Part shown: positions 2,994 through 63,087 of the stretch, in pieces
Position numbering within the stretch: the stretch's first letter is position 1
Layout: every line of letters begins with the position of its first letter
Source of the DNA: Chlamydiales bacterium
GTDB lineage: Bacteria; Chlamydiota; Chlamydiia; Chlamydiales; JAAKFR01
Length of the DNA: 64,000 nucleotides
Reading direction: 5' to 3'
Assembly (NCBI GenBank): GCA_022601535.1
Contig: JAJACK010000001.1
Location: forward strand, 724,893-788,892
The notes under the pieces: generated by a model
The model's database searches: none
Told to the model about the DNA's origin: nothing
Seen by the model: the letters and a program-made list of their open reading frames with translations, nothing else
Position numbers and translations under genes: made by a program

Positions 2994-2999
2994 GGAAGT

Positions 3000-3368: not shown

Positions 3369-3369
3369 G

Positions 3370-3693: not shown

Positions 3694-3694
3694 T

Positions 3695-4243
3695 ATGGGA
3701 AAACTTAAGGAAAAATATCTAACTGAAATTCGCGCTTCGTTAAAAGAGAAGTTTCAGTACAAAAATCCCATGATGACTCCAGTTCTGAAAAAAATTGTCA
3801 TCAACATGGGCCTTGCAGAAGCGTCACAAGATAAAAATGCATTGCAAGATGCAATCAAAGAGTTGACAATCCTTTCAGGGCAAAAGCCCGTCCTTGCTCG
3901 TGCACGGAAGTCAATTGCAGGTTTTAAACTTAGAGAAAATCAAGTGATTGGAGCTAAAGTGACATTGCGTGGAAAGCGGATGTACGATTTTGCAGAACGT
4001 TTTTTTACAATCGTTTCTCCCCGTATCCGTGACTTTAGAGGATTTAATAGAAAGTGTGATGGACGAGGAAGCTACTCTCTTGGTATCGATGATCAACAGA
4101 TTTTCCCAGAGATTGAACTCGATAAAGTTAAAAGAACTCAAGGAATGAACATCACTTTTGTCACATCAGCAAAAAATGATGAAGAGTGCTTTGAGTTATT
4201 GCAGCAGATGGGACTACCCTTTAAAAAAGAGGCTAAAAAATGA
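3695..4243 (+). CDS. rplE: 50S ribosomal protein L5
   Basis: [20 protein letters not shown]...FPEIELDKV are L5 signatures. Confidence 0.96.
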
Positions 4244-12492: not shown

Positions 12493-12840
12493 ATGGGAAG
12501 GCAAATTCTAATTATTGATGATGACGAAGATATTACAGAATTGCTCGCATTTCGTCTCACTAAAGAAGGGTATACCGTCACTTGTACTGGAAGTGGTAAG
12601 GGAGCGATTGAAGAGAGCAAAAATGGTGCTTTTGATCTATTTATCTTGGATCGCCTTCTTCCCGATATGCGGGGTGAAGAGATTGCAAAAACCTTAAAAA
12701 GTGCAGAGAAGACAAAAGAAGCTCCTATTCTCTTTATTTCAGGAATCGCTGAAGGAGGGGAAGAAGAGTTTTCAGATCACTTCCTTCTCAAGCCTTATGA
12801 ATGGAAAGATTTAATCTATGCAATAGGCAAGCTGATATGA
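12493..12840 (+). CDS. stand-alone response regulator receiver (CheY-like, no output domain)
   Basis: REC motifs are present: ILIIDDDED, phospho-acceptor FILDRLLPDM, and the conserved Lys in LLKPY. 115 aa, so there is no room for an effector domain. Confidence 0.88.
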   Translation: MGRQILIIDDDEDITELLAFRLTKEGYTVTCTGSGKGAIEESKNGAFDLFILDRLLPDMRGEEIAKTLKSAEKTKEAPILFISGIAEGGEEEFSDHFLLKPYEWKDLIYAIGKLI

Positions 12841-13916
12841 CAGAAAAAATATCTCGATCCCTTTTTGAAAATATTCTTGAACACTCTCCAGTTGCTGTTC
12901 TTGTGACAGATAAGAATGGGAAGATGATTTTCTTTAATAAAGAGGTCATAGAGCTTTTTGGCTATTCAAAAGAGGAGATGATAAATCAGGAAGTGGAAAT
13001 GCTTCTTCCAAAAAATATTCGGACCCAACACCGTAAACAGAGAAGTGATTATATTACGAGTCACTCTCCTCCAAGGCTTATGGGGGTTGGAAGAGATTTA
13101 TTTGGGGTGCATAAAGAGGGGCATTTTATTCCGGTTGAAATTGGTTTAAATCCGATCAAAGTGGATGGAAATCAACTTGTTATTGCAACAGTTATCAATA
13201 TCACAGAGCGGAGAAAAAAAGAAGATCAGCAGATTGGGCAATTGATTCGAAATCTCGAGCGTTCGAATAAAGAGTTGGAGGAGTACGCTCATCTTATTTC
13301 CCACGATTTGCAAAACCCTTTGTCTGTCGCTTATTCAACCGTTGAGATCATCGAATCTGAAATGAAGAGTGAGACAGTTCTTCCTTTTGTGGATAAACTT
13401 AAATCTTCTATTAGCGAGATGAGCGAATTGACAAACTCCTTATTAGCGCTTTCTCATATTGTTGAGGAGAGGGTAGAAAAAGTGCCTTTAGATCTCAATG
13501 AACTCATCAAAGAGGTTGTTGCTGATTATAAAGCAAAAGATTTCGTTCATGTAGGAGAATTGCAAACGATAGAGGGGGACCCAATTTTTTTGCGGGATCT
13601 TTTTAAAAACCTCATTGGAAATGCAATCAAATATTGTAAACCAAATCATCCTCCTCAGATTGAAATTTATGGAAAATCAGAAGAGCATTTCTATGCATTA
13701 AAGATTTGTGATAATGGAATGGGTTTGTCAGATACATCAGATATTTTTAAAATTTTTAAACGGCTCCCTGAAGGGAAAGACCAAAAAAAAGGGTTTGGGA
13801 TTGGGCTTGCTGTTTGTAAAAAGGTAGTAGACCTTCATCAGGGAGAAATTTCAGTGGAGAGTAAGCCCGGAGAAGGGACGACATTTACCATTAAATTCCC
13901 CCTATCTCAAAAATAA
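12837..13916 (+). CDS. PAS-domain sensor histidine kinase
   Basis: The ATG at 12837 overlaps the REC stop (ATGA). PAS region is present. H-box is ISHDLQNPL. HATPase boxes are NLIGNAIKY, DNGMGL and GFGIGLAVCKKVV..GEGTTF. Confidence 0.9.
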   Translation: MTEKISRSLFENILEHSPVAVLVTDKNGKMIFFNKEVIELFGYSKEEMINQEVEMLLPKNIRTQHRKQRSDYITSHSPPRLMGVGRDLFGVHKEGHFIPVEIGLNPIKVDGNQLVIATVINITERRKKEDQQIGQLIRNLERSNKELEEYAHLISHDLQNPLSVAYSTVEIIESEMKSETVLPFVDKLKSSISEMSELTNSLLALSHIVEERVEKVPLDLNELIKEVVADYKAKDFVHVGELQTIEGDPIFLRDLFKNLIGNAIKYCKPNHPPQIEIYGKSEEHFYALKICDNGMGLSDTSDIFKIFKRLPEGKDQKKGFGIGLAVCKKVVDLHQGEISVESKPGEGTTFTIKFPLSQK

Positions 13917-45896: not shown

Positions 45897-46472
45897 ATGG
45901 GTCTAAAAGAAACAGTCAAAAGTATGAGAACACTACTTCACACAATTGAAGGAGATCTCGATAAAGTGGAAGCGGGAAATAAAGCGGCAGGCCAAAGAGC
46001 GCGCAAACTCACGATTCAATTTCAAAAAGTTGCAAAAGTCTTTAGAAAAGAATCTGTAAAAAGTTCTGAGATGAAGAAGATTAAAGCAACGAAGAAAAAA
46101 ACAGCAGCAAAAAGAAAGCCTGCAGCTAAGAAGAAGGTCGTTGCTAAGAAGAAAGTGGCTAAGAAGAAAGCAGTAGCAACGAAAAGAAAGGCTCCAGCTA
46201 AGCGAAAAACAGCGACAAAGAGAAAAGCTCCAGTCAAGAAGAAAGTGGCTAAGAAAAAAGCGGTAGCAACGAAAAGAAAGGCTCCAGCTAAGCGAAAAAC
46301 AGCGACAAAAAGAAAAGCTCCAGCAAAGAGAGCAGCTACAAAAAAGCGTTCAACGAAAAGAAAAACAGTGACGAAAAAAAGAGCACCTGTACGTAAAAAG
46401 ACAACAACACGTGCAAAAACTGCTCGACCTAAAAAACGAAGTGCTGCTAAAGTGCAGCGTAAGAAAAGATAA
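45897..46472 (+). CDS. hctA: chlamydial histone H1-like protein Hc1
   Basis: The N-terminal domain KETVKSMRTLLHTIEGDLDKVEAGNKAAGQRARKLTIQFQKVAKVFRKESVK aligns with C. trachomatis Hc1 (ALKDTAKKMTDLLESIQQNLLKAEKGNKAAAQRVR...KIAKVYRKESIK). Lys/Ala-rich tail. GAGGAGGAGG RBS. Confidence 0.92.
   Translation: MGLKETVKSMRTLLHTIEGDLDKVEAGNKAAGQRARKLTIQFQKVAKVFRKESVKSSEMKKIKATKKKTAAKRKPAAKKKVVAKKKVAKKKAVATKRKAPAKRKTATKRKAPVKKKVAKKKAVATKRKAPAKRKTATKRKAPAKRAATKKRSTKRKTVTKKRAPVRKKTTTRAKTARPKKRSAAKVQRKKR
46146..46325. repeat. 2 x 90-bp tandem repeat inside the hctA tail
   Basis: 46146-46235 and 46236-46325 are near-identical. Each encodes KKKVAKKKAVATKRKAPAKRKTATKRKAP[V/A]. Confidence 0.9.
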
Positions 46473-46502
46473 CTGGCTTAGCCAGTGGCACTGTTTTTTT
46501 AA

Positions 46503-46539
46503 GGGAGGTTAATCGCCAGATATGCCTCCCTTTTTTTTT
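46503..46539 (+). terminator. rho-independent terminator after hctA
   Basis: GGGAGG (46503-46508) and CCTCCC (46525-46530) form the stem, followed by T9. A small hairpin CTGGC-TTA-GCCAG lies upstream at 46473-46485. Confidence 0.7.
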
Positions 46540-46566
46540 GCAAGTTTGTGGAGGCAAACAAAATAA

Positions 46567-47733
46567 ATGGACAATGAATTAGATCTGTTGCGTAAGATCG
46601 ATAAGATAGATCTCAAACTCCTCTTTAAATACCAAGAGCACTTTATTCCTCACATTGAGGAGGTGGTCGATGAGTTTTTGGAGTGGTTTTCAAAAAATAC
46701 AACGTGGCTAGCCTATTTTAGAGATAAGGATCTCTTCTCATTTAGAACACGAATTCTTGAATACTGGAAGGCATTTTTTACTCTTCTAAATACCCCCGAT
46801 TTCATTTCATCTCGCCATAGGGTTGGAGATTTGCATGCAACAAACCAAGTTCCTGCAGATGACTACATCTGTGCTTACAATCATATCCTAAACCGTTTTC
46901 TTGAGATTGCTCAAAAGAATAAGGCGATTGCAAAGGAAGATAAAGACCTCCTTTTTCTCTCAATACATAATCGTGGGATCGCTGATATTTGTATCATCTT
47001 GAAAAAATTTGCCCAGTCAGATCGGCGAATGCATAGCCAAATACGGGATCAGCATAGAGAAACCTTAATGGGGATTTTTACACTGACAATCTCAGATGAA
47101 TTTCTAAACCCAATGACTGCTCTGCTCAATAATATTCAACTGACTAAAGAGCTTGTAATGGAAAATGAAAGAGCGGTCAGCCGCCTTGAGAACTCTGAAA
47201 AAATCGTCATGGATTGTGTTCATGTAATCACAACATTACGTCTATTTGCAAAGCAAGATGTCAGTGTTGAAAAATCGATCGCCTCGACCAATTGCATCGA
47301 TGTGCTCGATCAAGTGCTTTTCTTTCTTGAAACGACGTCTAAGGCAGAGGATATCACCATTATAAGAGATTTCGACCCCTCTTCTCCAGCAGTTGAAATG
47401 AAAGTGGCAGACATCCGTTATACCTTTTTAACGCTTTTTGTTTTTGTCATATCACTTGTTGTTCATTGTCCTGTTAGAGAAATCATTGTTTCGGTTAAAC
47501 CTGCCGATGGTGATCTTGAAATTGTCATTAAGGATAGTGGGCAAGGGCTTTCTAAAGAAGATAAAGATCTGGTCTTTACTCCATATTTTTCAAAAGTGAA
47601 ATCTAAAATTAAGGGGGCCGATTTGCTTTTTTGTCGGGAAGTAATTGAGGAAAACGGTGGAAAAATCTCCCTTGAAAGTGTAGAAGGGAATGGAACAACA
47701 TTTACAATCCGTTTCCCTGGGCAAAAGAAATGA
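46567..47733 (+). CDS. globin-coupled-sensor-like protein with degenerate histidine-kinase core (pseudo-kinase)
   Basis: The N-terminal ~150 aa resembles the protoglobin/GCS domain (...VVDEFLEWF...RHRVGDLHATNQVPADDYICAYNHIL, compared with HemAT [20 protein letters not shown]). The DHp box reads ISDEFLNPMTAL, with D where the phospho-His sits in SHELRTPLTAI. The N-box Asn residues are absent. The G1 box DSGQGL is retained. Confidence 0.6.
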   Translation: MDNELDLLRKIDKIDLKLLFKYQEHFIPHIEEVVDEFLEWFSKNTTWLAYFRDKDLFSFRTRILEYWKAFFTLLNTPDFISSRHRVGDLHATNQVPADDYICAYNHILNRFLEIAQKNKAIAKEDKDLLFLSIHNRGIADICIILKKFAQSDRRMHSQIRDQHRETLMGIFTLTISDEFLNPMTALLNNIQLTKELVMENERAVSRLENSEKIVMDCVHVITTLRLFAKQDVSVEKSIASTNCIDVLDQVLFFLETTSKAEDITIIRDFDPSSPAVEMKVADIRYTFLTLFVFVISLVVHCPVREIIVSVKPADGDLEIVIKDSGQGLSKEDKDLVFTPYFSKVKSKIKGADLLFCREVIEENGGKISLESVEGNGTTFTIRFPGQKK

Positions 47734-48110
47734 GCAAAATGATTTTAACAATTGACGATGATCGCGATGTGCAAGAGGTCTTTTCTGCAGTGTTGGCTCA
47801 AGCAGGCTACAGTGTTTGTCAAGCATTGAGCGGTGAAGAAGGTTTAGAAACGTTAAAAACAAACTCGATTGACCTTATTCTTCTCGATCTTCATATGCCA
47901 GGAATGAATGGAATTGACACATTTATTAAAATTAGAGAGATGAATTTAGAGGCACCTGTTTGTATCATCAGTGCTTATGTTGACGGATATCAAGAGGAGT
48001 TACAAAAGCTTACAGAGAGTGGATACCACTTTTCTACTCTAGACAAACCTGTTGGGATGAAGCAACTTCTGTCTAAAGCAGAGACATTAGTAAATGGTAC
48101 AACAACATAG
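47730..48110 (+). CDS. stand-alone response regulator receiver
   Basis: ILTIDDDRD, the phospho-acceptor LILLDLHMPGMNG, and the conserved Lys in LDKP. ATGA overlap with the upstream gene. 126 aa, no output domain. Confidence 0.88.
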   Translation: MSKMILTIDDDRDVQEVFSAVLAQAGYSVCQALSGEEGLETLKTNSIDLILLDLHMPGMNGIDTFIKIREMNLEAPVCIISAYVDGYQEELQKLTESGYHFSTLDKPVGMKQLLSKAETLVNGTTT

Positions 48111-48241
48111 CTTAATGAAAAAAATCGATTCAGCCAATTCAGTGTTTCATTTTTTTCTGGAAGATTGTGAAAAAGTGTGGTAAGAGAAAAGCAAGTGCAT
48201 AGTTGGCCGACGAATTTTATCCTAAAAAAAGGAGAGCTATA

Positions 48242-48685
48242 ATGACAAAGATATTCCCGATTTTGATTGCAGACGATGACCTCGGCGATTGTCAATTGGT
48301 ACAGAAAGCTCTGCAACAAAACAAGGTTTTAAACCCTCTGTTTGTCGTGCATGATGGTATTGAGTTACTCGATTTTCTAAATCAGAGAGGAGAGTATAGT
48401 GATGCAGAAAAATTTCCACCCCCCGGTTTACTTCTTCTAGATCTCAATATGCCGAAGAAGGATGGGCGTGAGGCTTTGAGTGAAATCAAGTCAAACCCCA
48501 AGCTACGCTCCATCCCTGTTGTGATTATGACAAATTCTAGGCAAGAAACAGATATAGCAATCTCGTATGAGCTTGGAGTCAATTCTTATATTGAAAAGCC
48601 CCTGACGTTTGAGTCTTTAGTGGATTTAGTTAAGGCATTAAATGTCTATTGGTTTGAAATTGTAACTCTCCCGAATCATGAGTAA
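48242..48685 (+). CDS. stand-alone response regulator receiver (Rcp1-like)
   Basis: The ATG at 48242 follows GGAG. ILIADDDLGD, LLLLDLNMPKKDG, VVIMTNS and the Lys in IEKP. Resembles phytochrome-associated single-domain regulators. Confidence 0.85.
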   Translation: MTKIFPILIADDDLGDCQLVQKALQQNKVLNPLFVVHDGIELLDFLNQRGEYSDAEKFPPPGLLLLDLNMPKKDGREALSEIKSNPKLRSIPVVIMTNSRQETDIAISYELGVNSYIEKPLTFESLVDLVKALNVYWFEIVTLPNHE

Positions 48686-49040
48686 AAAAATAATTGTTAT
48701 CGATGATGATGAAGATGTCTCTTTGCTTCTTTCTTTCCGCTTAAATAATGAGGGATATACTGTTATCACTGCAAGCACTGGGAAGAAAGGTTTGGAAAAA
48801 TTGGCAGATGACTCATTTAGCCTTATTTTATTAGACAAGAATCTCCCTGATATAAATGGTCTTGAGCTTGCAAAAACAATTAAATCAGATCCAAAAATCT
48901 CTAATCTTCCGATCATCATTATTTCGGGTTTTAGAAAACAGCCCGAAGATGAAATTGCAGAAGCTTTTTTACTCAAGCCGTACGAGTGGAATGAGCTGTC
49001 AAGCTTGATAAAAGAACTTATTTCGGAAAAGAAAAGTTAA
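48678..49040 (+). CDS. stand-alone response regulator receiver (paralog of 12493-12840)
   Basis: IIVIDDDEDVSLLLSFRL, LILLDKNLPDING and FLLKPYEWNEL. Same architecture and C-terminal motif as the 12493 receiver. Confidence 0.88.
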   Translation: MSKKIIVIDDDEDVSLLLSFRLNNEGYTVITASTGKKGLEKLADDSFSLILLDKNLPDINGLELAKTIKSDPKISNLPIIIISGFRKQPEDEIAEAFLLKPYEWNELSSLIKELISEKKS

Positions 49041-50118
49041 AAGCAGTCCCTTCTCCAAGTTCACTTTGAACATTGAGCGTCCCATGATGAAGTTCGATCA
49101 ACTCTTTTGCAATGGCAAGTCCTAAGCCAGAACCTTTGACCCCCGTTTGCATAGATTTTTTTCCAAACTGTTTAAACGATTCAAATAGGTGGGGAAGGTC
49201 ATCAGGAGCAATCCCCGGCCCTGTATCAGCAACAGAACACTCAATACGATCTTTTTGGTCTGAAACATTAATTGTCACTTCTCCTGTTTCGGTAAATTTA
49301 AGAGCATTGCCGAGAAGATTCGTGAAAATTTGAATGATTCTTAAACGGTCGCAGTTGAGTTGTACACGTTCTGAATTTACAACTAATTTAATTCCTTTTT
49401 TAGCAAAAGGGCTTTCATACGCTTTTGCAAGCTCTGCAATCAACTCTTCAAGTTCAACAACTTCAAAATTGAGCTCCATTTGTCCCGCTTCAATTTTAGT
49501 CACATCAAGCAAGTCATCGAGAAGTATTCTCAGTCGATCAATCCCATTTTGTGAAATAGAGAGCATGTTTTTTTGCTGGTCATTCAAAGCTCCAGCACTT
49601 CCATCTAAAACACACATGATCCCTTCTTTTATATAGGTCAATGGAGATCGAATTTCATGGGAAACCATCGAAACAAAATCGGATTTTATTTTACTCAAAT
49701 GTTGGAGAGCAAGTTCTTGTTGCTTTCGATCAATTGCGTAGTGGATCACTCGTTTGATCAATCCAGGAGAAATTTCATCTTTTGTGAGAAATCCGTGAAC
49801 CCCTAAATCAGAAAGTTTGGAAATAATTAAATCGTCTTCAAGGCCTGTTAGGATAATCACAGGAAGTTCAGGCTTTAACGCTTTTATCTTCAGAACAACT
49901 TCTGTCTCTTTTGCATCGGGGAGATTTAAATCTGTAAGAATGATATCTAAATCATTCTCTTTAACAATTTTGACAGCCTCTTCTAAGCTTTCAGCTGTCT
50001 TGATCGAGTAGAGATTTGTGATCAAAGAGAACTGTTTTTTTATCAAAAAAAGATCGCTTGGATCGTCCTCTATCAGGAGTAGGGTTATTTTTTTGCTATT
50101 ATTTGTCATTTTCCCCAA
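49018..50118 (-). CDS. hybrid protein: N-terminal receiver domain plus HisKA/HATPase histidine kinase
   Basis: REC region (LLLIEDDPSD, IILTDLNLPD), then the H-box VSHEIRSPL, N-box NLLGNALKF, DTGPGI and GSGLGLAIAKELIELHHG. Confidence 0.9.
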   Translation of the reverse strand: MGKMTNNSKKITLLLIEDDPSDLFLIKKQFSLITNLYSIKTAESLEEAVKIVKENDLDIILTDLNLPDAKETEVVLKIKALKPELPVIILTGLEDDLIISKLSDLGVHGFLTKDEISPGLIKRVIHYAIDRKQQELALQHLSKIKSDFVSMVSHEIRSPLTYIKEGIMCVLDGSAGALNDQQKNMLSISQNGIDRLRILLDDLLDVTKIEAGQMELNFEVVELEELIAELAKAYESPFAKKGIKLVVNSERVQLNCDRLRIIQIFTNLLGNALKFTETGEVTINVSDQKDRIECSVADTGPGIAPDDLPHLFESFKQFGKKSMQTGVKGSGLGLAIAKELIELHHGTLNVQSELGEGTAFNFSFPK

Positions 50119-50180
50119 AAAAATGAATGTAAAAAATTTTAAGTAATATGTAAATTCATTTTCATAGCAAAAGGTGTTTT

Positions 50181-52001
50181 ATGGCGGATATGGAAAATAA
50201 ATCAGATTTTTTAACAATGTTCAACGCAGTTCCAGCTTTGGTCTTACTCTTAGACTCTCAAGGAAATATTATCTCTATCAGTCAAAAGGTCATTGATTTT
50301 TTAGGATATACGTTAGAAGAAGTGCTTGGGAAAAACTTGAGCAGCTTGTTTTCAGGAGATGATAAAGGTTATAGCTTTGAAAAAATAGTGGGGAATAACC
50401 AGCAAAATCAGCAGTACAGTTGTTCGGATAAAAAGGGCAACAATAAGCTTGTAAAGATGGAATTGTCTTCAATTGAATTAGAAGGAGAGGGGCGGTTTAT
50501 TGCGTCACTTTCCACTGCTGATGAACCTTTTGAGGATAAGTTAACATTTGTCAAAATACTCAACGCGGCGCCAAATGCAATGGTATTGGTCGATGAGAAA
50601 GGGGAGATTGTTTTTGCAAATGACAAGCTAGAAGAGCTTTTTGGCTATACAAAAGAAGAGATGATTGGCAAAAAGGTTGAAGTTCTCCTCCCCGAAAATA
50701 TTCGAGAGAAGCATGTTGGATTGAGAGATGCATATATTTCTCAAAATCCAACCACACGGATGATGGGAGAAGGGAGAGAGCTTTTTGGGAAAAGTAAAAC
50801 AGGAAAACAGATTCCAGTAGAAATTGGGCTTGGCCCGACAACCATCAATGATAAGCCTTATGTCATTGCAACAATCGTAGATATCACTGAGCGTAAGCAG
50901 CGGCAAGAACTTTTTCAAAAAGCAATTGAAGCTTCTCCAACAGCGATGTTGATGGTCAATCAAAGTGGAGTTATTGTGTTTAGCAATGCAAGGGTGACAC
51001 AGATGTTTGGTTACGATCGTTCAGAGCTTATTGGACAACCAATTGAAATGCTTCTTCCCGAGAGCTTAAAGAAAAAACATGTTGGATTAAGAGATGGTTA
51101 CATTGCACGGCCAGAGCCACGTCAAATGGGGATGGGGCGAGATCTTTTTGGAATACATAAGTTTGGATACGATGTTCCAGTTGAAATTGGCTTGAACCCG
51201 CTAAAAATCGGTGATGAAATGCATGTGATTGCGGGAATTATAGATATTTCCCAACGAAAACAGCAAAATCAAAAAATAGACTCGATGATCAAAGAGTTAG
51301 AACGTTCGAATAAAGAGTTAGAAGAGTTTGCTTATGTCGCTTCTCACGATCTCCAAGAGCCGATTCGGAAAGTTCAATCTTTTGGAGATCTTTTACTCAA
51401 AGAGTATGGAGATAGGCTTGACGGTGAAGCAAAAGAGTATATAAAACATATGAGCAGTTCGATTTTAAGGATGCGTAGATTGATCAATGATCTTCTTGCC
51501 TTTTCTCGTTTATCAACACAGACAAAGGAATTTACCTCTACAGACCTCAATTTAGTGCTCACCAATGTGTTGTCTGATTTAGAAGAGAAAATCAAAACAG
51601 CACACGCAGAGATCGAAGCAGATCAATTGATCACAATTGATGCGGATGAAACACAGATGCATCAACTCTTCCAAAACTTCATAACCAATGCACTCAAATT
51701 TCATAAGGCCGATGTAAATCCAGTGATAAAAATTCGTGGCCGTGTCGAAGATGAATATTACGTGATCGACTTTAAAGATAATGGGATTGGCTTTGAAATG
51801 GAGTTTGTGAAAAAAATATTTACGATTTTTCAACGCCTCAATTCAAAAGAAGCGTACGAAGGGACTGGGATTGGCCTTGCCATGTGTAAAAAAATTGTTG
51901 AGAGACATGAAGGGCAAATTACAGTATTGAGTGAAGTGGGTGAGGGAATAATCTTTACCTTGAAATTGCCGATCAAACAAAGAGCTGAAAACAACTCTTA
52001 A
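50181..52001 (+). CDS. triple-PAS sensor histidine kinase
   Basis: Three PAS-like repeats, each ending ...GK/GR.LFG..K.G..[IV]PVEIGL. H-box ASHDLQEPIRKV. N/G boxes NFITNALKF, DNGIGF and GTGIGLAMCKKIVERHEG. Confidence 0.9.
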   Translation: MADMENKSDFLTMFNAVPALVLLLDSQGNIISISQKVIDFLGYTLEEVLGKNLSSLFSGDDKGYSFEKIVGNNQQNQQYSCSDKKGNNKLVKMELSSIELEGEGRFIASLSTADEPFEDKLTFVKILNAAPNAMVLVDEKGEIVFANDKLEELFGYTKEEMIGKKVEVLLPENIREKHVGLRDAYISQNPTTRMMGEGRELFGKSKTGKQIPVEIGLGPTTINDKPYVIATIVDITERKQRQELFQKAIEASPTAMLMVNQSGVIVFSNARVTQMFGYDRSELIGQPIEMLLPESLKKKHVGLRDGYIARPEPRQMGMGRDLFGIHKFGYDVPVEIGLNPLKIGDEMHVIAGIIDISQRKQQNQKIDSMIKELERSNKELEEFAYVASHDLQEPIRKVQSFGDLLLKEYGDRLDGEAKEYIKHMSSSILRMRRLINDLLAFSRLSTQTKEFTSTDLNLVLTNVLSDLEEKIKTAHAEIEADQLITIDADETQMHQLFQNFITNALKFHKADVNPVIKIRGRVEDEYYVIDFKDNGIGFEMEFVKKIFTIFQRLNSKEAYEGTGIGLAMCKKIVERHEGQITVLSEVGEGIIFTLKLPIKQRAENNS

Positions 52002-52088
52002 ACATTTAGAATCTTTTTTCCAATAGCATCAAAGTCTCTAATCCCGTTATGCTTTCTCAATATTTCTATTTAAACAAGTGAGTGCTCT

Positions 52089-56763: not shown

Positions 56764-58397
56764 TGAAACTTGCTCTTGCTCAACTCAATCCAATTATTGG
56801 CGCACTCAAAGAGAACACCGATAAAATCATTGAGATGGTAGAAAAAGCGAGGGAAAAAGGGAGCGACATGGTCCTTTTTTCAGAACTTGTTATTTGTGGC
56901 TATCCTCCTCAAGATCTCCTGTTACTCCCTTCTTTTGAAAAAGAGATGGAAGCTCAATTGGTGCGAATCATCGAAGCTTCTGCTGATATAATTCTGTTTG
57001 TTGGAACAATTCGAAAGAATGTGGGAAAGGGAAAAAAAACATTTTTCAATAGCTGCGCAATCATTGAAGATCAATCTCTTGTGGGGTATCAAGATAAGGC
57101 TCTTCTTCCCGATTACGATGTCTTTTTTGAGAGACGTTATTTCGAACCTGTTGCTGAAAATAAAGTGTGGAAATTTGGAGGAAAACGGGTTGCTGTGACG
57201 ATCTGCGAAGACATTTGGCAAGATGAAGCTTCAAATTACATCTACGACCCAATCAAAGCACTTGGAAAGGAGTCGATCGATCTTGTTGTTAATCTCTCTG
57301 CCTCCCCCTTCTACGCACACCGGATAGATGCAAGGAGGCGGATTTGCCATCGGGTGACAACCCTTTTAAAAGCGCCGATCGCCTACTGCAATCAGGTGGG
57401 AGGAAACGATCAACTCATCTTCGATGGCTATAGCTTTTTTATGGATAGCAAAGGGGAGATCACCCACGCTGCGAAAGGGTTTGCAGAAGACCTCTTGATG
57501 GTCGATTTAGAAGAGAAGCGGCAACCTCTTCCTATGGCTATTCAACCTGTAGCAGATCTCATGTCAGCACTTGTCCTTGGCTTGAGAGATTACTTCAAAA
57601 AACAAGGATTTACAAAAGCGGCTCTCGGTCTTTCAGGAGGGATTGATTCAGCAGTGACAGCGTGTATCGCAGCAGAAGCACTTGGAAAAGAAAATGTATT
57701 GGCCATCGGGATGCCCTCTCGTTTTACATCAGACGAGACAATGGTTGATTCAAAAGAGCTGTCGAAGCGCTTAGGAGTGTCTTATAAGGTGATTTCGATA
57801 GAAGAACCTTTTTCTGCTCTACTCAAGGTTTTAAATCCACATTTCAACGGGAAGAGTCCCGATACAACCGAAGAGAATCTCCAAGCACGTATCCGAGGAT
57901 TGATTCTCATGGCGTTTTCAAACAAGTTTGGGCACATCATCTTGGGGCCTGGAAATAAAAGTGAAATGGCAATGGGATACGCAACCCTCTATGGGGATAT
58001 GTGCGGTGGGATTGGAGTTCTCTCAGATGTGACAAAGCAAGGGGTGTATGAGCTTGCCAATTGGATCAATCGAGACGAAGAGATGATCCCTTCCAATATT
58101 TTGACGAAAGCTCCTACAGCTGAATTGAAGCCGGGACAAAAAGATCAAGATACCCTCCCAGAATATGCGATTGTTGATGCAGTTTTAGAAGATTATATCG
58201 AAGAACATCTCGAACCTGAAGAGATTGCCAAAGAGCGTAACTTTCCACTTGAACTAGTTGAAGAGCTCATCTGTAAAATCCATTTCAATGAGTATAAAAG
58301 AAGGCAAGCGCCTCCAGGGTTGAAGGTGACTAAAAAAGCATTTTCAGCAGGTCGCCACTTTCCCATTGTCCAAAAATGGGTTAAATCTGGGCTTTGA
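56763..58397 (+). CDS. nadE: glutamine-dependent NAD+ synthetase (CN-hydrolase plus PP-loop domains)
   Basis: N-terminal nitrilase-like domain (FSELVICGYPP, VTICEDIW). PP-loop GLSGGIDSAV. 544 aa. Confidence 0.93.
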   Translation: MKLALAQLNPIIGALKENTDKIIEMVEKAREKGSDMVLFSELVICGYPPQDLLLLPSFEKEMEAQLVRIIEASADIILFVGTIRKNVGKGKKTFFNSCAIIEDQSLVGYQDKALLPDYDVFFERRYFEPVAENKVWKFGGKRVAVTICEDIWQDEASNYIYDPIKALGKESIDLVVNLSASPFYAHRIDARRRICHRVTTLLKAPIAYCNQVGGNDQLIFDGYSFFMDSKGEITHAAKGFAEDLLMVDLEEKRQPLPMAIQPVADLMSALVLGLRDYFKKQGFTKAALGLSGGIDSAVTACIAAEALGKENVLAIGMPSRFTSDETMVDSKELSKRLGVSYKVISIEEPFSALLKVLNPHFNGKSPDTTEENLQARIRGLILMAFSNKFGHIILGPGNKSEMAMGYATLYGDMCGGIGVLSDVTKQGVYELANWINRDEEMIPSNILTKAPTAELKPGQKDQDTLPEYAIVDAVLEDYIEEHLEPEEIAKERNFPLELVEELICKIHFNEYKRRQAPPGLKVTKKAFSAGRHFPIVQKWVKSGL

Positions 58398-59532
58398 GTA
58401 AAGTTGCAAGCCGCTTTGCATCAGCGATGCAATTGTTTACACCACTTCCACGAAAACTATTTCCAATATGGTAGTGGTGAGGAGGGAGATTTTTTTCAAA
58501 TGCATCGACCCAGTTGTGGTGTCCGATTTGGTATTGAGGGATCGCTTTAAAAGCTCTGTGGATATGCATTGCATCGGGCTCACTTGTTATTCCCACATAT
58601 TTAGCGACACTCTTCTTTGCAATTTCTTCTAATGTTTCATCGGTTCCATCTTCTTTGATCATCACACAAACACGACTCTTCCCCTCTTGCTCTGGGAAGA
58701 TCATCGAATCCCACGTCATTCCTAAAAAGGGTTCAGGCTCAGTTGAAGGGACAAGAAATCCAAATCCTTTTTTCTCTAAAAGATTATCGTGCCATCCCAT
58801 GCTCACTGTCATAATATCGGCACGAACAGGTGCACAAGGGGTGGTCCAAATAACTATATCACCCTCGATATCATCAACTTGATGATTCAAAATGATTTCT
58901 GCATCTACCTTTTCAGCCAACGCTTTAACAAGTGTTTCCATTCCCCCTTGGAAGGAATATAGAGCCGCTTTACACTTCTCTTTTTTAGAGCGGCCACGGA
59001 TCAATGACCCTTTTGTTTGATCGATTTCCCAAAGAGAAGGGAAGCAGGAGCGAGCGGATAATTGTCGATAATCTCCACCATAAATTCCCCGAGTGAAAGG
59101 GTCGATAAGAGCGGCAGCAAACCGGTGGTTGAAATGGCGGGAAAAGAAGGCTTCAATGGTTTCATCTTCTCGCTTGAGTGGAGATGTGAAGAGGTCTCGC
59201 ATAGCTCCTGAGAGGAGTCCATTTTTCAGGAGATAGCCGATTGAAAAGGGGGTGAGTTTTCCATCGCGGCAAACATACCTTTTTTGAGCCGCTTTACATG
59301 CAGGAAGTAGTGTCAAATCAAGAGAATTACAAAGTGCAACACTCTCTTTTCCAGGGCCGACAGGACGGAAGCCACGTGGCCCTGTTTCAAAGCAAAATCC
59401 CTCTTTATGAATGGTACGGATCCATCCACCGACCCGGTTGCTTTTTTCATAGAGGGTCACTTTCCCCAATTTTTGCAAATACCATGCGGCGGCAAGTCCT
59501 GAGATGCCACCTCCAATAATTTTAATTTCCAT
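58381..59532 (-). CDS. hemY: protoporphyrinogen oxidase (FAD-dependent, HemY type)
   Basis: The start MEIKIIGGGISGLAAAWYL (ATG at 59532) is preferred. The track extension to 59631 is built from the intergenic repeats. About 383 aa amine-oxidase fold. Confidence 0.85.
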   Translation of the reverse strand: MEIKIIGGGISGLAAAWYLQKLGKVTLYEKSNRVGGWIRTIHKEGFCFETGPRGFRPVGPGKESVALCNSLDLTLLPACKAAQKRYVCRDGKLTPFSIGYLLKNGLLSGAMRDLFTSPLKREDETIEAFFSRHFNHRFAAALIDPFTRGIYGGDYRQLSARSCFPSLWEIDQTKGSLIRGRSKKEKCKAALYSFQGGMETLVKALAEKVDAEIILNHQVDDIEGDIVIWTTPCAPVRADIMTVSMGWHDNLLEKKGFGFLVPSTEPEPFLGMTWDSMIFPEQEGKSRVCVMIKEDGTDETLEEIAKKSVAKYVGITSEPDAMHIHRAFKAIPQYQIGHHNWVDAFEKNLPPHHYHIGNSFRGSGVNNCIADAKRLATLLKAQI

Positions 59533-59580
59533 AATGAAGAGAATAATAGGTAAAAGAAAGGATTTGGGCAATATGGAAAA

Positions 59581-59667
59581 ATGGAGTTGAAAACTCCAAA
59601 AATAGAGTAAAAATGGAGTTTCCAACTCCAAAAATCACAAATTAATGGACTTTTTAACTCCATTTTT
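59581..59667. repeat. three 23-bp imperfect palindromes phased exactly 32 bp apart
   Basis: ATGGAGTTgaaaAACTCCAAAAAT (59581), ATGGAGTTtccAACTCCAAAAAT (59613) and ATGGACTTtttAACTCCATTTTT (59645). Each core is GGAGTT-n3/4-AACTCC. Confidence 0.85.
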
Positions 59668-59680
59668 CTATATTTAGGGG

Positions 59681-60829
59681 ATGTTCAAGCGGCTTTTACA
59701 GATCCCTCAAAAAAAGAGTTTTTTTCTCTTTGGCCCTAGAGGGACAGGAAAAACCTGGTGGATGCGTAAGCACTTTCCTCAAGGGATTTATATTGATCTG
59801 CTCAAAACAGAGGTTTACACTTCACTTATTTCAAACCCTTCACGCCTAGAAGATTATATACCTCCATCCTTTGATGACTGGATTTTAATTGATGAGGTTC
59901 AACGTATTCCTCAACTTTTAAATGAAGTGCATCGCCTCATTGAAGAGAAAGGCTATCTGTTTGTACTTACGGGTTCTAGTACTCGCAGCTTAAGGAAAAG
60001 AGGAACAAATCTCTTAGCTGGCCGAGCTTTGACCTATCACATGTATCCCCTAACTGTACCAGAGCTTGGAGAGCGGTTTCACCTTGAACAGGGGTTGAAT
60101 TTTGGGCATCTCCCTTCTATTTTTAATGAATCAAATCCTTCTCTTTACCTCAAGTCATATATAGATACATATTTAAGGGAAGAAGTTCTCCAGGAAGGAC
60201 TGACTCGCAATATCAGTGTATTCACACGGTTTTTAGAAGTTGCAAGTTTTTCTCAAGGCTCAGTTGTGAATATGTCAGCTATAGCGCGTGAGTGCCATGC
60301 TCACCGTAAGGTTGTGGAGAGCTATTTTCAAATTGTAGAAGATTTACTTTTGGGTGTTCGTCTCCCTCTTTTTAATAAGCGGGCGAAACGGAAGCTGATT
60401 TCACATCCCAAATTTTATTTTTTTGATGTTGGGGTTTACCGGTTTTTAAGACCTAAAGGGCCAATGGATTTTACAGAAAGTATCGATGGAGTAGCTATTG
60501 AAACACTGATTTTTCAAGAGCTTAGAGCGATCAATGATTATTTCCAACTCGACTATACCCTTTATTACTGGAGAACACAGAGCGGTCTTGAAGTAGATTT
60601 TGTTCTCTATGGTCCAAAAGGAATGGTTGCAATAGAGGTCAAAAGAACGACAAATGTTTCCCAAAAAGATATGAAACCACTTTTAGAATTTGGAAAAGAT
60701 TATCCGGGGAGTCATTTATTCATTTTTTATGGTGGTAAAGAGAAGATGTATCGAAATAACATCCATTTTATTCCTTTAACAATGGCTCTTCAAACCCTTC
60801 TTGAAATCATACAGATTGAGAGTAAATAG
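59681..60829 (+). CDS. AAA-family ATPase with C-terminal DUF4143 (nuclease-fold-like) domain
   Basis: Walker A FLFGPRGTGKTW. Walker B ILIDEVQ. C-terminal YYWRTQSGLEVDFVLYG...VAIEVK is typical of AAA_14/DUF4143 proteins. Confidence 0.85.
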   Translation: MFKRLLQIPQKKSFFLFGPRGTGKTWWMRKHFPQGIYIDLLKTEVYTSLISNPSRLEDYIPPSFDDWILIDEVQRIPQLLNEVHRLIEEKGYLFVLTGSSTRSLRKRGTNLLAGRALTYHMYPLTVPELGERFHLEQGLNFGHLPSIFNESNPSLYLKSYIDTYLREEVLQEGLTRNISVFTRFLEVASFSQGSVVNMSAIARECHAHRKVVESYFQIVEDLLLGVRLPLFNKRAKRKLISHPKFYFFDVGVYRFLRPKGPMDFTESIDGVAIETLIFQELRAINDYFQLDYTLYYWRTQSGLEVDFVLYGPKGMVAIEVKRTTNVSQKDMKPLLEFGKDYPGSHLFIFYGGKEKMYRNNIHFIPLTMALQTLLEIIQIESK

Positions 60830-62141
60830 GTTTAGTCGACGAAAAGGAATAAGCATCAAATGCTGTTGCAACAAGGCGAATTAAAAGTTCTCCAAGCTTT
60901 GTAACAGAAAGCTTTTCTGCCGTATTGATGACAAGCCCCTCTTTTTCAAGCGTCCCAATCCCTACATCGGCAAAATAGGTGTCAAAAGAGTGTTGGTACC
61001 GGTCGAAAAATGCTTGTTTGTCGAGCTCAAATTGACACATCAATGTATGAATCACCCATTTGCGTAGATGGTCATCATATGTCAGCACTTTGCCACGGGC
61101 AACGGGGATTTCATTACGGTCAAGGGAAGCGTAATAGTTGGGGAGATCCTTGATATTTTGAGCATAACACCCTCCTGCAAAACCGATTGCAGTGACACCA
61201 AATCCAATCATTTGCTCGGCAAGTTTTGCGCTATATCCTTGGAAATTTCGTTGCAATCTTTTTTGTTTATAACAAAGAGCCAACTCATCTTCACTTTTGG
61301 CAAAATGGTCCATTCCAATAGCAACATAGCCTGCTTTAACAAACGCTTCGCGCGCCTCTTGATAGATTTGAAATTTTGCCTCTGTACTTGGCAATGTCTC
61401 TTCGCGGATTGCATTTTGATGCTTTTTTAGCCATGGCACTTTTGCGTAGGAAAAAAGAGAAATTCGATCAGGAGCCATTTCAATCATATGTTCTACAGTG
61501 AGTCGAAATGTCTCCACTGTTTGGTAGGGAAGTCCATAGATGAGATCGATGTTGATTCCACGGAAGGAAATTTTTCGAGCCAATTCAAATGTCAGCTTAG
61601 TCATTGCGTAACTCTGTCGTCGTTTAACCGCTTCTTGCACTTTCTCATTTGTATCTTGTACACCAAAACTGACCCGATTGAATCCCAGTTCTCGATAGAA
61701 GCGGAGCTTTTCTTCATCAATTGTTCGAGGATCTATCTCAAGGGCAATCTCTCCATCAAAGTCGAGATCAAAGGCAAGGGTGATTTTTTCGAAGAGTTTT
61801 CGAAAAAGAGGCATTGTCAGTTTTGTCGGTGTCCCTCCTCCAAAATGGAGTTGCGACACTTTTTTTCGTCCTCCTAGTTCAGCTGTAACAAGGTCGATCT
61901 CTTTGCACAGGTAGTCAACATAGAGCTCTTCATTTTCTTGTTTTCGATTTAAAACGACACTACATCCACAGTAGAGACACATCGTTTTACAAAAGGGGAT
62001 ATGGAAATAGAGGGAGAGAGGTCCATTGAGGTTGTGTAACTTTTCTTGGTAGGTTGATGGATCGAGATTTTCCCAAGCAGGGGCTGTTGGGTAGCTTGTA
62101 TAACGGGGGGATGGTCGGTTAAATTTTTCGAGATCGAACAT
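60807..62141 (-). CDS. hemN: oxygen-independent coproporphyrinogen III oxidase (radical SAM)
   Basis: HIPFCKTMCLYCGC (CxxxCxxC), GGGTPT, and the HemN C-terminal domain. 444 aa. Confidence 0.93.
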   Translation of the reverse strand: MFDLEKFNRPSPRYTSYPTAPAWENLDPSTYQEKLHNLNGPLSLYFHIPFCKTMCLYCGCSVVLNRKQENEELYVDYLCKEIDLVTAELGGRKKVSQLHFGGGTPTKLTMPLFRKLFEKITLAFDLDFDGEIALEIDPRTIDEEKLRFYRELGFNRVSFGVQDTNEKVQEAVKRRQSYAMTKLTFELARKISFRGINIDLIYGLPYQTVETFRLTVEHMIEMAPDRISLFSYAKVPWLKKHQNAIREETLPSTEAKFQIYQEAREAFVKAGYVAIGMDHFAKSEDELALCYKQKRLQRNFQGYSAKLAEQMIGFGVTAIGFAGGCYAQNIKDLPNYYASLDRNEIPVARGKVLTYDDHLRKWVIHTLMCQFELDKQAFFDRYQHSFDTYFADVGIGTLEKEGLVINTAEKLSVTKLGELLIRLVATAFDAYSFSSTKPIYSQSV

Positions 62142-63087
62142 AGTTTACCAGGAATTTAACATTTTCAAATGGGATATCTGGCAAAATTCCATGTCCTAAA
62201 TTGAAGATGTAGCCAGGGTCACCTTCCATCGCATTTAAAATTCTTGAAGCTCTCTCTTCAATCATCGTTTGATCTCCGTAGAGGATCGTTGGATCTAAGT
62301 TTCCCTGCAACGCAATAGATCGGTCGATCCTTTTTCGCATTTTAGGTAGATCGTAGCTCCAATCTAAACTGATTGCAGAAGGGGCAATTTTTGCAATATC
62401 CATTGCATGCATCCCTCGAGCAAAAACAATCACAGGAACTTTTGGTTTGATCGCTTTTACAATTTGTTCAAGGTAGGGGAGTGAAAAGCGTCTAAATTCA
62501 TCGGGACCGATGTGGTTGGCCCAAGAATCAAAGAGCTGAATTGCATCGACACCTGCATCGATTTGGAGATTGAGGTAGGTGATGGTCTCTTCTGTCACCT
62601 GGTCGAGCATTTTTTCAAACTCTTTGGGCTTAGTAAAAAGCATCCGTTTCATTTTGAGGAACGTTTTCGTCGTCTCCCCTTCAATCAGGTAGCTTGCAAT
62701 TGTAAAAGGAGCTCCAGCAAAACCAAGAAGAGGAACAGAGAGCTCTTGTTTCAACTGCTCGATTGCAATTTTGATGTGTGGATACGCATTTTTTTTAGGT
62801 TTAAAGTGGGAGAAATCGATCTTTGGACCTGGATCAAACGTATAAGAGACGCCAAGACCATTGAGAACTGTGAGGATATCGCTGAATAAAATAGCTCCAT
62901 CAAGAGGGAAAGAGGCAAAAGGGAGTTTTGTCACTTCCACAATGGTTTTAGGGTCGTGAAACATTTCGAGGAGGGATTGCCTTTTTTTAAAAGCAGCGTA
63001 GTCGGGTAGGTAGCGACCAGCTTGCCGCATCAACCAAATAGGAGCGCGATTTTTGTTCTTGCAGGTGAGAGCATCTAGAAGTGGCAT
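62119..63087 (-). CDS. hemE: uroporphyrinogen decarboxylase
   Basis: APIWLMRQAGRYLPDY is the signature at the N-terminus. 322 aa. Overlaps the hemN start by 23 nt. Confidence 0.93.
   Translation of the reverse strand: MPLLDALTCKNKNRAPIWLMRQAGRYLPDYAAFKKRQSLLEMFHDPKTIVEVTKLPFASFPLDGAILFSDILTVLNGLGVSYTFDPGPKIDFSHFKPKKNAYPHIKIAIEQLKQELSVPLLGFAGAPFTIASYLIEGETTKTFLKMKRMLFTKPKEFEKMLDQVTEETITYLNLQIDAGVDAIQLFDSWANHIGPDEFRRFSLPYLEQIVKAIKPKVPVIVFARGMHAMDIAKIAPSAISLDWSYDLPKMRKRIDRSIALQGNLDPTILYGDQTMIEERASRILNAMEGDPGYIFNLGHGILPDIPFENVKFLVNYVRSRKI

What the first reader, a model, noticed from the sequence alone, without database searches (positions are those of the whole stretch)
46567..47733. Globin-coupled sensor fused to a kinase core with Asp in place of the phospho-acceptor His
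The first ~150 aa align by eye with the protoglobin/GCS sensor domain. The match is VVDEFLEWF ... RHRVGDLHATNQVPADDYICAYNHILNRF against the HemAT-type IDEIVDRFY ... [20 protein letters not shown], and it includes a candidate proximal His.

The following DHp box reads T-I-S-D-E-F-L-N-P-M-T-A-L. That aligns residue for residue with S-H-E-L-R-T-P-L-T-A-I, so the phosphorylatable His is Asp. In the ATPase domain the N-box Asn residues are missing (LTLFVFVISLV). The G2 box is degenerate (GADLLF), while DSGQGL is retained.

The gene is translationally coupled (ATGA) to a receiver gene. This suggests a heme or gas sensing pseudo-kinase. It may regulate its receiver or the neighbouring kinases by binding, or act as a phosphatase or scaffold. 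DivL, which has Tyr in place of His, is a precedent.
Basis: partly seen in the sequence, partly recalled or inferred. Interest (0 to 1): 0.62.

Follow-up and report, generated by a model that had tools for sequence, protein, structure and literature searches.

The report
Orphan globin-coupled dead histidine kinase
A sponge-associated chlamydia carries a one-of-a-kind gene that joins a heme-type gas-sensor domain to a histidine-kinase body that has lost its phosphate-accepting histidine and its ATP-binding residues, so it probably signals by binding or dephosphorylating its partner protein, not by phosphorylating it.

Summary
Window 46567-47733 (+) encodes a 388-aa protein with three parts.

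- **Sensor globin.** Pfam Protoglobin E 5e-13. The predicted fold matches HemAT and AfGcHK with TM 0.70-0.78. The proximal His (H90) is kept, but the distal Tyr B10 is Leu38.
- **DHp hairpin.** Asp177 sits where 147 of the 149 nearest kinase cores have His. Glu178, Asn181 and Pro182 are kept.
- **CA domain.** It folds with pLDDT above 90 but lacks both N-box Asn (T289, F293) and the G2 glycines (I348, D352). The G1 and F boxes are intact.

The stop codon overlaps (ATGA) the start of a canonical single-domain receiver gene.

Two findings are new. First, the protein has no orthologue in 5.8 billion or 1.84 billion proteins, nor in 40 related genomes. Second, it is the first gene of a 5.5-kb, low-GC, six-gene two-component island inserted between hctA (Hc1) and trmA. 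Those two genes are adjacent in the sister species and in 12 other genomes of the family.

It is almost certainly not a kinase. It is most likely a heme-responsive pseudokinase that docks on or dephosphorylates its receiver. A decaying relic cannot be excluded because only one sequence exists. The scan has already noted other His-to-Asp pseudokinases on other DNA, but none with a globin. Interest is moderate.

The parts
46567..47733 (+). Gene for the 388-aa globin-coupled pseudo-histidine kinase
   Evidence: ORF. Pfam Protoglobin + weak HisKA + partial HATPase_c. Only itself found in 5.8e9 and 1.84e9 protein searches.
46567..47010 (+). Sensor-globin domain (residues 1-148). Proximal His90 is codon 46834-46836. 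Leu38 at the distal Tyr B10 position is codon 46678-46680.
   Evidence: Pfam E 5e-13. phmmer hit to the V. vulnificus RsbR globin 7o0i, E 2e-9. Profile alignment to HemAT, AfGcHK and GsGCS. AF2 model pLDDT 64 with Foldseek top hits HemAT and AfGcHK, TM 0.70-0.78.
47011..47262 (+). Helical linker and DHp hairpin (about residues 149-232). Asp177 (GAT, 47095-47097) replaces the phospho-acceptor His. Glu178, Asn181 and Pro182 are kept.
   Evidence: The AF2 model has one continuous helix 139-196 and a second helix 201-229.
47263..47730 (+). CA (HATPase_c) domain with a degenerate ATP site. N box 47413-47457 (T289, F293). G1 box DSGQG 47533-47547 intact. G2 region 47608-47631 (I348, G350, D352).
   Evidence: AF2 pLDDT above 90. 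Foldseek top hits ZraS, FixL chimeras, HK853 and DivL.
47730..48110 (+). RR1, a single-domain receiver translationally coupled by ATGA. It keeps D10/D11, D53, S81 and K106.
   Evidence: Pfam Response_reg E 2.3e-22. Sequence read directly.
46501..46539 (+). hctA (Hc1) terminator hairpin plus T-run. This is the last sequence shared with the sister genome and marks the left junction of the island. The target ATG lies 27 nt downstream.
   Evidence: Alignment with the empty site in G001. Sequence.
46540..52030 (.). Six-gene two-component island: pseudokinase, RR1, RR2 (48242-48685), RR3 (48678-49040), hybrid REC-HK (49018-50118, minus strand) and triple-PAS HK (50181-52001). It is inserted between hctA and trmA.
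   Evidence: Absent from the same site in G001 and in 12 genomes of other genera of the family. GC 0.379 against a genome mean of 0.428, the 1.6th percentile. Domain content.

Best explanation
The gene is intact. It encodes a homodimer-type sensor in which a heme-binding sensor globin is joined through one continuous helix to a DHp/CA transmitter that can no longer autophosphorylate.

- **Shown from sequence:** there is no acceptor His (Asp177), no Mg/ATP-binding Asn (Thr289, Phe293), and the ATP-lid glycines are lost (Ile348, Asp352).
- **Inferred:** the transmitter still works as a docking surface for the co-translated receiver RR1, which is presumably phosphorylated by the two bona fide kinases of the same island. 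The heme state (ligand or redox) changes the DHp conformation. That change controls either dephosphorylation of RR1~P, through the retained Glu178-x-x-Asn181 phosphatase motif, or its sequestration.

The protein arrived, or was assembled, as part of a lineage-specific 5.5-kb two-component island in a sponge-associated chlamydia.
For: - **Domain and fold evidence:**
- **Loss of catalysis:** four independent catalytic positions are lost against 149 nearest cores, while structural residues and the G1 and F boxes are kept.
- **Phosphatase motif:** Asn at H+4 is kept, and it is the residue required exclusively for HisKA phosphatase activity. The His itself is variably dispensable: CrdS H371A shows a modest reduction, EnvZ His243 is not required, PleC H610A is dead (PMC3510030), and HK853 H260A is diminished (PMC5727384).
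- **Partner receiver:** RR1 has all receiver active-site residues and an ATGA overlap with the target.
- **Kinases nearby:** two canonical kinases and two more receivers lie in the same island.
- **Intact gene:** the ORF is unbroken in a streamlined 1.57-Mb genome and identical in three assemblies.
- **Heme supply:** heme-synthesis genes hemE, hemN and hemY are present 11 kb away.
- **Precedents for working His-less kinases:** DivL (PMC4211667) and PsmA, which has Glu or Asp at the His site (PMC12963549).
Against: - There are no orthologues, so purifying selection cannot be shown.
- Both modules are eroded. The distal Tyr B10, important for O2 recognition in AfGcHK (PMC8697598), is Leu.
- The globin model has only moderate confidence (pLDDT 64), and heme binding is not demonstrated.
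- The conserved His contributes to phosphatase catalysis in some HisKA kinases. Nucleotide binding to CA stimulates phosphatase activity in several kinases (own knowledge), and this CA probably binds none.
- No promoter fits in the 27 nt between the hctA terminator and the ATG, so expression is unproven.
Confidence: 0.5

Rival explanations
1. Decaying relic. A once-active globin-coupled kinase came in with the island, became redundant beside the two active kinases, and is drifting towards loss. The open frame has simply not been hit yet.
For: - It is a singleton with no orthologue, even in the sister species.
- Lesions have accumulated in both sensor and transmitter: Tyr B10, His, two Asn and two Gly.
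- HisKA scores below its Pfam cut-off. HATPase_c scores 50 bits against 80-108 bits for the six other histidine-kinase-type CA domains of the genome.
- The gene sits in an obligate-intracellular lineage with a dynamic set of two-component genes.
Against: - The 1,167-bp frame is intact, with a start codon, a GGAGG upstream, and a preserved ATGA overlap with an intact receiver gene.
- Losses are concentrated on catalytic residues, while fold-determining residues, the G1 and F boxes and the E-x-x-N-P motif are kept.
- The CA domain is predicted with pLDDT above 90.
- The genome is compact at 1.57 Mb.
Confidence: 0.28
2. Anti-kinase or scaffold. The pseudokinase acts on the neighbouring hybrid kinase or triple-PAS kinase, in the manner of RetS on GacS or DivL on CckA. 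It modulates their output according to heme state, and the receiver is not its main target.
For: Two active kinases are encoded within 3.5 kb in the same island, and there is no output-domain regulator. DivL and GacS are among the fold matches. Known pseudokinases work this way (PMC4211667; 10.1101/812529, abstract).
Against: - The translational coupling is to a receiver, not to a kinase.
- The kinase core is only about 24-26% identical to the island kinases, which does not suggest DHp heterodimerisation.
- Sensor globins of this family form homodimers (own knowledge of the HemAT and AfGcHK structures).
Confidence: 0.12
3. Still a kinase, using a non-canonical acceptor (for example His156 or His163 on the same helix) or trans-phosphorylation by another kinase.
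For: The G1 box DSGQG and the F box are intact. Other His residues lie upstream on the DHp-linked helix.
Against: The Mg-coordinating Asn is Phe, the second N-box Asn is Thr, and the G2 box has lost two glycines. Pfam cannot align the N-box half of HATPase_c. His156 and His163 lie 14-21 residues (4-6 helical turns) from the catalytic register.
Confidence: 0.03

Closest known systems
AfGcHK, globin-coupled histidine kinase of Anaeromyxobacter sp. Fw109-5 (PDB 5ohe/5ohf; PMC8697598)
   Same: The domain order (sensor globin, helical linker, HisKA-type DHp, HATPase_c) and the size (about 380 aa) are the same. A receiver gene is adjacent. The proximal His is conserved (His99 there, His90 here). The globin model superposes with TM 0.72-0.78.
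   Different: AfGcHK autophosphorylates at His183 and uses Tyr45 to recognise O2. Here those positions are Asp177 and Leu38, and the ATP-binding N and G2 boxes are destroyed. Globin sequence identity is about 13%. The target sequence alone finds only the RsbR globin 7o0i; AfGcHK is reached only with the six-sequence globin profile (E 1e-11). This is not an orthologue.
DivL of Caulobacter crescentus (PDB 4q20; PMC4211667)
   Same: It is a soluble-core histidine-kinase homologue lacking the acceptor His. It works as a sensor of a phosphorylated single-domain receiver and not as a kinase. It appears among both the fold and the sequence matches.
   Different: DivL has Tyr, not Asp. It is membrane-anchored with PAS domains, is conserved across alphaproteobacteria, and is essential. 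Here the sensor is a globin and the protein is an orphan.
PsmA of Streptomyces (PMC12963549)
   Same: It is a histidine pseudokinase with Glu (S. venezuelae) or Asp (S. coelicolor) at the His position, shown experimentally not to autophosphorylate.
   Different: PsmA is a large hybrid kinase-like polarisome protein that keeps the ATP motifs but lacks the D/E-x-x-T/N phosphatase motif. The protein here keeps E-x-x-N and has lost the ATP motifs.
Globin-type RsbR of the Vibrio vulnificus stressosome (PDB 7o0i)
   Same: It has the closest solved globin by sequence (E 2e-9 over residues 4-162), with the same 'VG..HA...P' proximal-His motif. A similar globin-STAS protein exists in a Waddliaceae MAG.
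   Different: Its output is a STAS domain in a partner-switching complex, not a kinase core. It also keeps the distal Tyr (FYDWL there, FLEWF here).

Membership tests
Globin-coupled sensor (sensor or S-family globin, Pfam PF11563 Protoglobin) | Significant match to the Protoglobin / sensor-globin profile | tested here: met
   49.8 bits, E 5e-13, against a cut-off of 25. 52.1 bits in the genome scan.
Globin-coupled sensor (sensor or S-family globin, Pfam PF11563 Protoglobin) | 3-on-3 sensor-globin fold | tested here: met
   The AF2 model (pLDDT 64, pTM 0.55) has as its top Foldseek hits HemAT, AfGcHK, BpeGReg, GsGCS and DosC globins, TM 0.63-0.78. Model confidence is moderate.
Globin-coupled sensor (sensor or S-family globin, Pfam PF11563 Protoglobin) | Proximal His F8 | tested here: met
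   His90 lies in the invariant His column with HemAT His123 and AfGcHK His99.
Globin-coupled sensor (sensor or S-family globin, Pfam PF11563 Protoglobin) | Distal Tyr B10 that stabilises bound O2 | tested here: not met
   Leu38 lies in the Tyr column (AfGcHK Tyr45, HemAT FYKNL, VvRsbR FYDWL).
Globin-coupled sensor (sensor or S-family globin, Pfam PF11563 Protoglobin) | Heme actually bound and ligand-responsive | not testable with these tools
   This needs UV-vis spectra of the recombinant protein.
HisKA-family sensor histidine kinase | Phospho-acceptor His in the H box | tested here: not met
   Asp177 where 147/149 nearest cores have His. Alignment with FixL.
HisKA-family sensor histidine kinase | HisKA profile above the gathering score | tested here: not met
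   19.3 bits against 26.9.
HisKA-family sensor histidine kinase | N-box Asn residues (Mg-ATP binding) | tested here: not met
   T289 and F293 where N is found in 140/149 and 148/149. The Pfam HATPase_c match starts at profile position 26.
HisKA-family sensor histidine kinase | G1 (DxGxG) and F boxes | tested here: met
   D323, G325, G327 and F337-x-x-Y340-F341 are retained.
HisKA-family sensor histidine kinase | G2 box (GxGLGL) of the ATP lid | tested here: not met
   I348, G350, A351, D352, L353, L354. G348 and G352 are lost.
HisKA-family sensor histidine kinase | E/D-x-x-T/N transmitter-phosphatase motif | tested here: met
   E178 and N181 are retained. The role of the motif is taken from PMC3510030. 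The activity itself is untested.
Functional histidine pseudokinase (the class of DivL and PsmA; not a homology family) | Kinase fold retained without catalytic residues | tested here: met
   AF2 core pLDDT above 90. Foldseek hits to ZraS, HK853 and DivL at E 1e-16 to 1e-12.
Functional histidine pseudokinase (the class of DivL and PsmA; not a homology family) | Degenerate state conserved among orthologues (evidence of selection) | tested here: inconclusive
   No orthologue exists in any collection searched. All ten contigs that carry the gene encode the identical protein, and the three that were read are 100% identical in DNA.

The most novel reading that the evidence does not exclude
The His-to-Asp change did more than kill the kinase. 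It created a dedicated, heme-gated receiver phosphatase. Asp177 and Asn181 lie one helical turn apart (D-x3-N), the same geometry as the catalytic Asp143/Gln147 pair of CheZ and the D-x3-Q motif of HisKA_3 kinases (own knowledge). This would be the first gas- or redox-regulated histidine pseudokinase, and the first case of a globin-coupled sensor whose output is pure dephosphorylation or sequestration. It would tune a multi-kinase phosphorelay in a chlamydia living in sponge tissue, where oxygen fluctuates.
Probability: 0.15. Interest if true: 0.65.

Novelty: new variant of a known kind. Interest (0 to 1): 0.4.

Why it matters
Globin-coupled sensors are known with kinase, cyclase, MCP, STAS and phosphodiesterase outputs, and histidine pseudokinases are an emerging class. 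A globin wired to a dead kinase would join the two.

It would also offer a simple soluble system of 388 aa plus a 126-aa receiver. With it one could ask how a sensor domain controls the non-catalytic functions of a DHp/CA module, namely docking and phosphatase activity.

The finding documents that environmental chlamydiae gain whole two-component cassettes at a defined chromosomal site. The sponge-chlamydia genome paper that released this contig mentions neither two-component systems nor globins.

The weight is limited because only one sequence exists, from an uncultured organism.

Tried and rejected
**Searches for relatives that found none**
- Word-indexed search of the full protein and of residues 1-150.
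- Profile search with chlamydial globins added, which yielded only a Waddliaceae-type globin-STAS protein and a fragment.
- Exhaustive HMMER search of 1.84 billion representatives. The best non-self hits cover only the kinase core, and ten that I checked carry PAS, REC or no sensor domain but never a globin.
- The search for related loci in genome contigs with the protein, with P0229 and with globin alignments, which gave nothing or one locus.

**Structure prediction limits**
- A deep alignment for the globin could not be built. MAFFT also misplaced globin-only rows when they were mixed with kinases.
- I therefore predicted the full protein with a kinase alignment. The globin part came out poor, at pLDDT 40-66.
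- I then predicted the globin alone with 4 sequences, which gave pLDDT 64.

**Expression**

**Readings considered and rejected**
- An RsbW/SpoIIAB-type Ser kinase. Those need the N-box Asn and the G boxes.
- An assembly error. The DNA is identical in three assemblies.
- A recent duplicate of another kinase in the genome. The best paralogue match is 26% over the core.
- A mobile element. There are no flanking repeats, integrase or tRNA at the junctions.
- A promoter for the gene. The sigma-70 consensus scan gave no more sites than shuffled sequence.

Full report
**What is there**

Window 46567-47733 (+) is a 388-aa ORF. Pfam finds three domains.
- Protoglobin matches residues 10-132 at E 5e-13, well above its cut-off.
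- HisKA matches residues 171-231 weakly, at 19.3 bits, below the 26.9 cut-off.
- HATPase_c matches residues 305-385 but covers only profile positions 26-109, so the half that carries the N box does not align.

NCBIfam gives only sub-threshold similarity to AtoS, ZraS, FixL and NtrB-type kinases.

**Residue-level check of the kinase core**

phmmer against PDB aligns 'FTLTISDEFLNPMTAL' with FixL 'MASALAHELNQPLAAI', and 'FLTLFVFVISLV' with the FixL N box 'LVNLFRNALEAM'.

I cut the kinase cores out of the 149 best non-self hits of an exhaustive HMMER search of 1.84 billion proteins. I aligned them with the target and counted residues per column.

| Target residue | Position | Residue in the 149 nearest cores |
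|---|---|---|
| Asp177 | His site | H in 147/149 |
| Glu178 | H+1 | E in 139 |
| Asn181 | H+4 | N in 139 |
| Pro182 | H+5 | P in 148 |
| Thr289 | N box | N in 140 |
| Phe293 | N box | N in 148 |
| Asp323, Gly325, Gly327 | G1 box | kept (149/149 each) |
| F337, Y340, F341 | F box | kept |
| Ile348 | G2 region | G in 141 |
| Gly350 | G2 region | kept |
| Asp352 | G2 region | G in 148 |

Four independent catalytic positions are therefore lost, while fold-determining residues are retained. Asp177 is GAT, one transversion from the His codon CAT. The N-box changes need two base changes each.

AlphaFold2 with a 53-sequence kinase alignment predicts a continuous helix 139-196 carrying Asp177, a return helix 201-229, and an alpha/beta CA domain at pLDDT above 90. 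Foldseek returns ZraS, FixL chimeras, HK853, WalK/YycG and DivL at E 1e-16 to 1e-12.

**Residue-level check of the globin**

The only solved relative found by sequence alone is the globin of the Vibrio vulnificus stressosome protein RsbR (7o0i, E 2e-9). 'VGDLHATNQVP' aligns there with 'VGEIHARVGLP'.

A profile built from the target and five chlamydial sensor globins finds several solved structures.

| Structure | E-value |
|---|---|
| 7o0i (V. vulnificus RsbR) | 1e-38 |
| GsGCS | 3e-21 |
| HemAT | 1e-20 |
| AfGcHK | 1e-11 |

In that alignment the target's His90 sits in the invariant column holding the AfGcHK proximal ligand His99. Leu38 sits in the column holding the AfGcHK distal Tyr45. The residue roles come from PMC8697598.

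A globin-only AlphaFold model built from 4 sequences has pLDDT 64. It nevertheless superposes on HemAT, AfGcHK, BpeGReg, GsGCS and DosC globins at TM 0.63-0.78.

So the domain is a sensor globin with its heme ligand intact but without the Tyr that stabilises O2 in characterised members. If it binds heme, a redox, NO/CO or low-affinity O2 response is as likely as classical O2 sensing. That last point is inference.

Genes for late heme synthesis (URO-D, HemN, a protoporphyrinogen-oxidase-type flavoprotein) lie at 58381-63087.

**Partner and neighbours**

The stop codon overlaps the ATG of a 126-aa single-domain receiver (ATGA at 47730-47733). That receiver keeps Asp10/Asp11, Asp53, Ser81 and Lys106.

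Downstream lie two more single-domain receivers, a REC-HisKA-HATPase hybrid kinase on the minus strand, and a triple-PAS kinase. Both kinases have canonical H boxes (SHEIRSPL, SHDLQEPI) and strong HATPase_c scores. No regulator in the cluster has an output domain.

**An orphan in an inserted island**

- The word-indexed search of 5.8 billion proteins returns only the protein itself, then kinase cores at 27% identity or less.
- The exhaustive search returns only itself below 1e-30.
- Ten similar-sized hits carry PAS, REC or no recognised sensor, never a globin.
- None of 40 related genomes (same genus, family or order) has a full-length match.
- The Protoglobin profile hits only 10 of 401 genomes of the phylum, and none of the 22 other genomes of the family. 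The true globin-coupled hits are HemAT-like MCPs, a globin-STAS RsbR-like protein, and one bona fide globin-HAMP-GAF-kinase with SHELRTPL. The remaining hits are flavohemoglobins (four) and one weak, sub-cut-off match to an unrelated 772-aa protein.

In the sister species G001 the order is TPR, Hc1, then 135 bp, then trmA and YajC. In 12 genomes of other genera the order ExbB-TPR-Hc1-trmA-YajC-HtpG is likewise conserved, with Hc1 next to trmA.

In the window's genome about 5.5 kb holding the six signalling genes lies between them. Homology with G001 runs through the Hc1 terminator hairpin (46501-46539) and stops there. The target ATG is 27 nt further on.

The island has GC 0.379 against 0.428 for the genome, the 1.6th percentile of 5.5-kb windows.

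There are no flanking repeats or recombinase genes. RR3 and the PAS kinase are old paralogues (48% and 40% identity) of a receiver/kinase pair at 12493-13916. The pseudokinase has no paralogue beyond generic CA similarity.

The same DNA, 100% identical, occurs on contig JAHZIS010063489.1 and in two Logan assemblies. JAHZIS is the Haliclona oculata sponge metagenome O_S4.2 of the study on sponge-associated chlamydiae. That paper does not mention two-component systems or globins.

**How it most likely works**

Shown: the protein has the kinase fold, lacks the acceptor His, and lacks the ATP/Mg ligands. It should therefore neither bind ATP productively nor autophosphorylate.

Inferred: it remains a receiver-binding module.

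In HisKA kinases the Asn/Thr at H+4 is the residue required exclusively for phosphatase activity, and the adjacent acidic residue is needed only for kinase activity. The His itself is variably dispensable. CrdS H371A shows a modest loss, EnvZ His243 is not required, PleC H610A is dead, and HK853 H260A is diminished (PMC3510030, PMC5727384).

The target keeps Asn181 and Pro182. A heme-controlled phosphatase of RR1~P, or a phospho-dependent sequestering partner in the manner of DivL (PMC4211667), is therefore the best-supported reading. RR1 would be phosphorylated by the two island kinases.

Asp177 and Asn181 are one helical turn apart. This recalls the Asp/Gln pair of CheZ and the DxxxQ motif of HisKA_3 kinases. 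That comparison rests on my own knowledge and is speculative.

**Rivals**

- **Decaying relic.** This is the main rival. The gene is a singleton, both modules are eroded, and profile scores are low. Against it stand an intact frame with preserved coupling in a 1.57-Mb genome and losses focused on catalytic residues. With one sequence this cannot be settled.
- **RetS/DivL-like action on the neighbouring kinases.** This is possible but is not favoured, given the coupling to a receiver and the low DHp similarity.
- **Residual kinase activity.** This is very unlikely.

**Comparison with what is known, and novelty**

The architecture equals that of AfGcHK, but the defining kinase features were tested here and not met, so the protein is not a member of the active kinase family. 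It belongs functionally with the histidine pseudokinases. These include DivL and PsmA, whose His position is Glu or Asp (PMC12963549).

Earlier notes of this scan describe several other His-to-Asp pseudokinases on unrelated DNA. The His-to-Asp state is therefore not new in itself.

What is new is the combination of a sensor globin with a dead transmitter, its occurrence in Chlamydiota, and the inserted island. I rate it a new variant of a known kind, of moderate interest, limited by n = 1 and the lack of expression data.

Noticed in passing
window 46146-46363 (within hctA/Hc1, 45897-46472): The basic tail of the Hc1 histone-like protein contains an internal tandem repeat of about 90 bp. A secondary BLAST hit aligns 46146-46279 with 46236-46363 at 89.6%. 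G001's Hc1 is 134 aa against 191 aa here.
   Followed up: partly
L031 (G007:C6) 2083-4107; window 46540-52030: The Hc1-trmA intergenic site has taken up different cargo in another genus. G007 carries three genes there for coiled-coil membrane proteins (272, 285 and 108 aa). This suggests a recurrent insertion site downstream of the hctA terminator.
   Followed up: partly
L011, L019, L021, L020 (G404:C31:986-7000): Another chlamydial genome has a tandem array of four HemAT-like globin-coupled MCP genes. One copy (L021) has lost both the distal Tyr (ILDWM) and the proximal His. It is thus a degenerate sensor paralogue beside intact ones.
   Followed up: no
L012 / L045 (Waddliaceae bacterium MAG, PAQS01000024.1:115187-118669): A 305-aa globin-STAS protein closely resembles the globin-type RsbR of the Vibrio vulnificus stressosome. 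It is the nearest chlamydial relative of the target's globin (23-26% identity).
   Followed up: partly
L013 (G040:C7:31373-34801): A bona fide globin-HAMP-GAF-histidine kinase, with SHELRTPL and the distal Tyr present, exists in another family of the same order. Active globin-coupled kinases therefore do occur in environmental chlamydiae.
   Followed up: no
window 12493-13916: A receiver plus single-PAS kinase pair is paralogous to RR3 (48%) and the triple-PAS kinase (40%) of the island. In G001 the orthologous kinase is preceded by an RR2-like receiver instead (60% identity), so receiver and kinase pairings have been reshuffled between the two species.
   Followed up: partly
window 58381-63087: A late heme-biosynthesis cluster (URO-D, HemN, protoporphyrinogen-oxidase-type flavoprotein) is interrupted by an oppositely oriented AAA_14/DUF4143 ATPase gene at 59681-60829.
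   Followed up: partly
window 46540-46566: Only 27 nt separate the T-run of the hctA terminator from the pseudokinase ATG, with GGAGG 12 nt upstream. The island operon may therefore depend on read-through from the late-stage histone gene or on an unconventional promoter.
   Followed up: no
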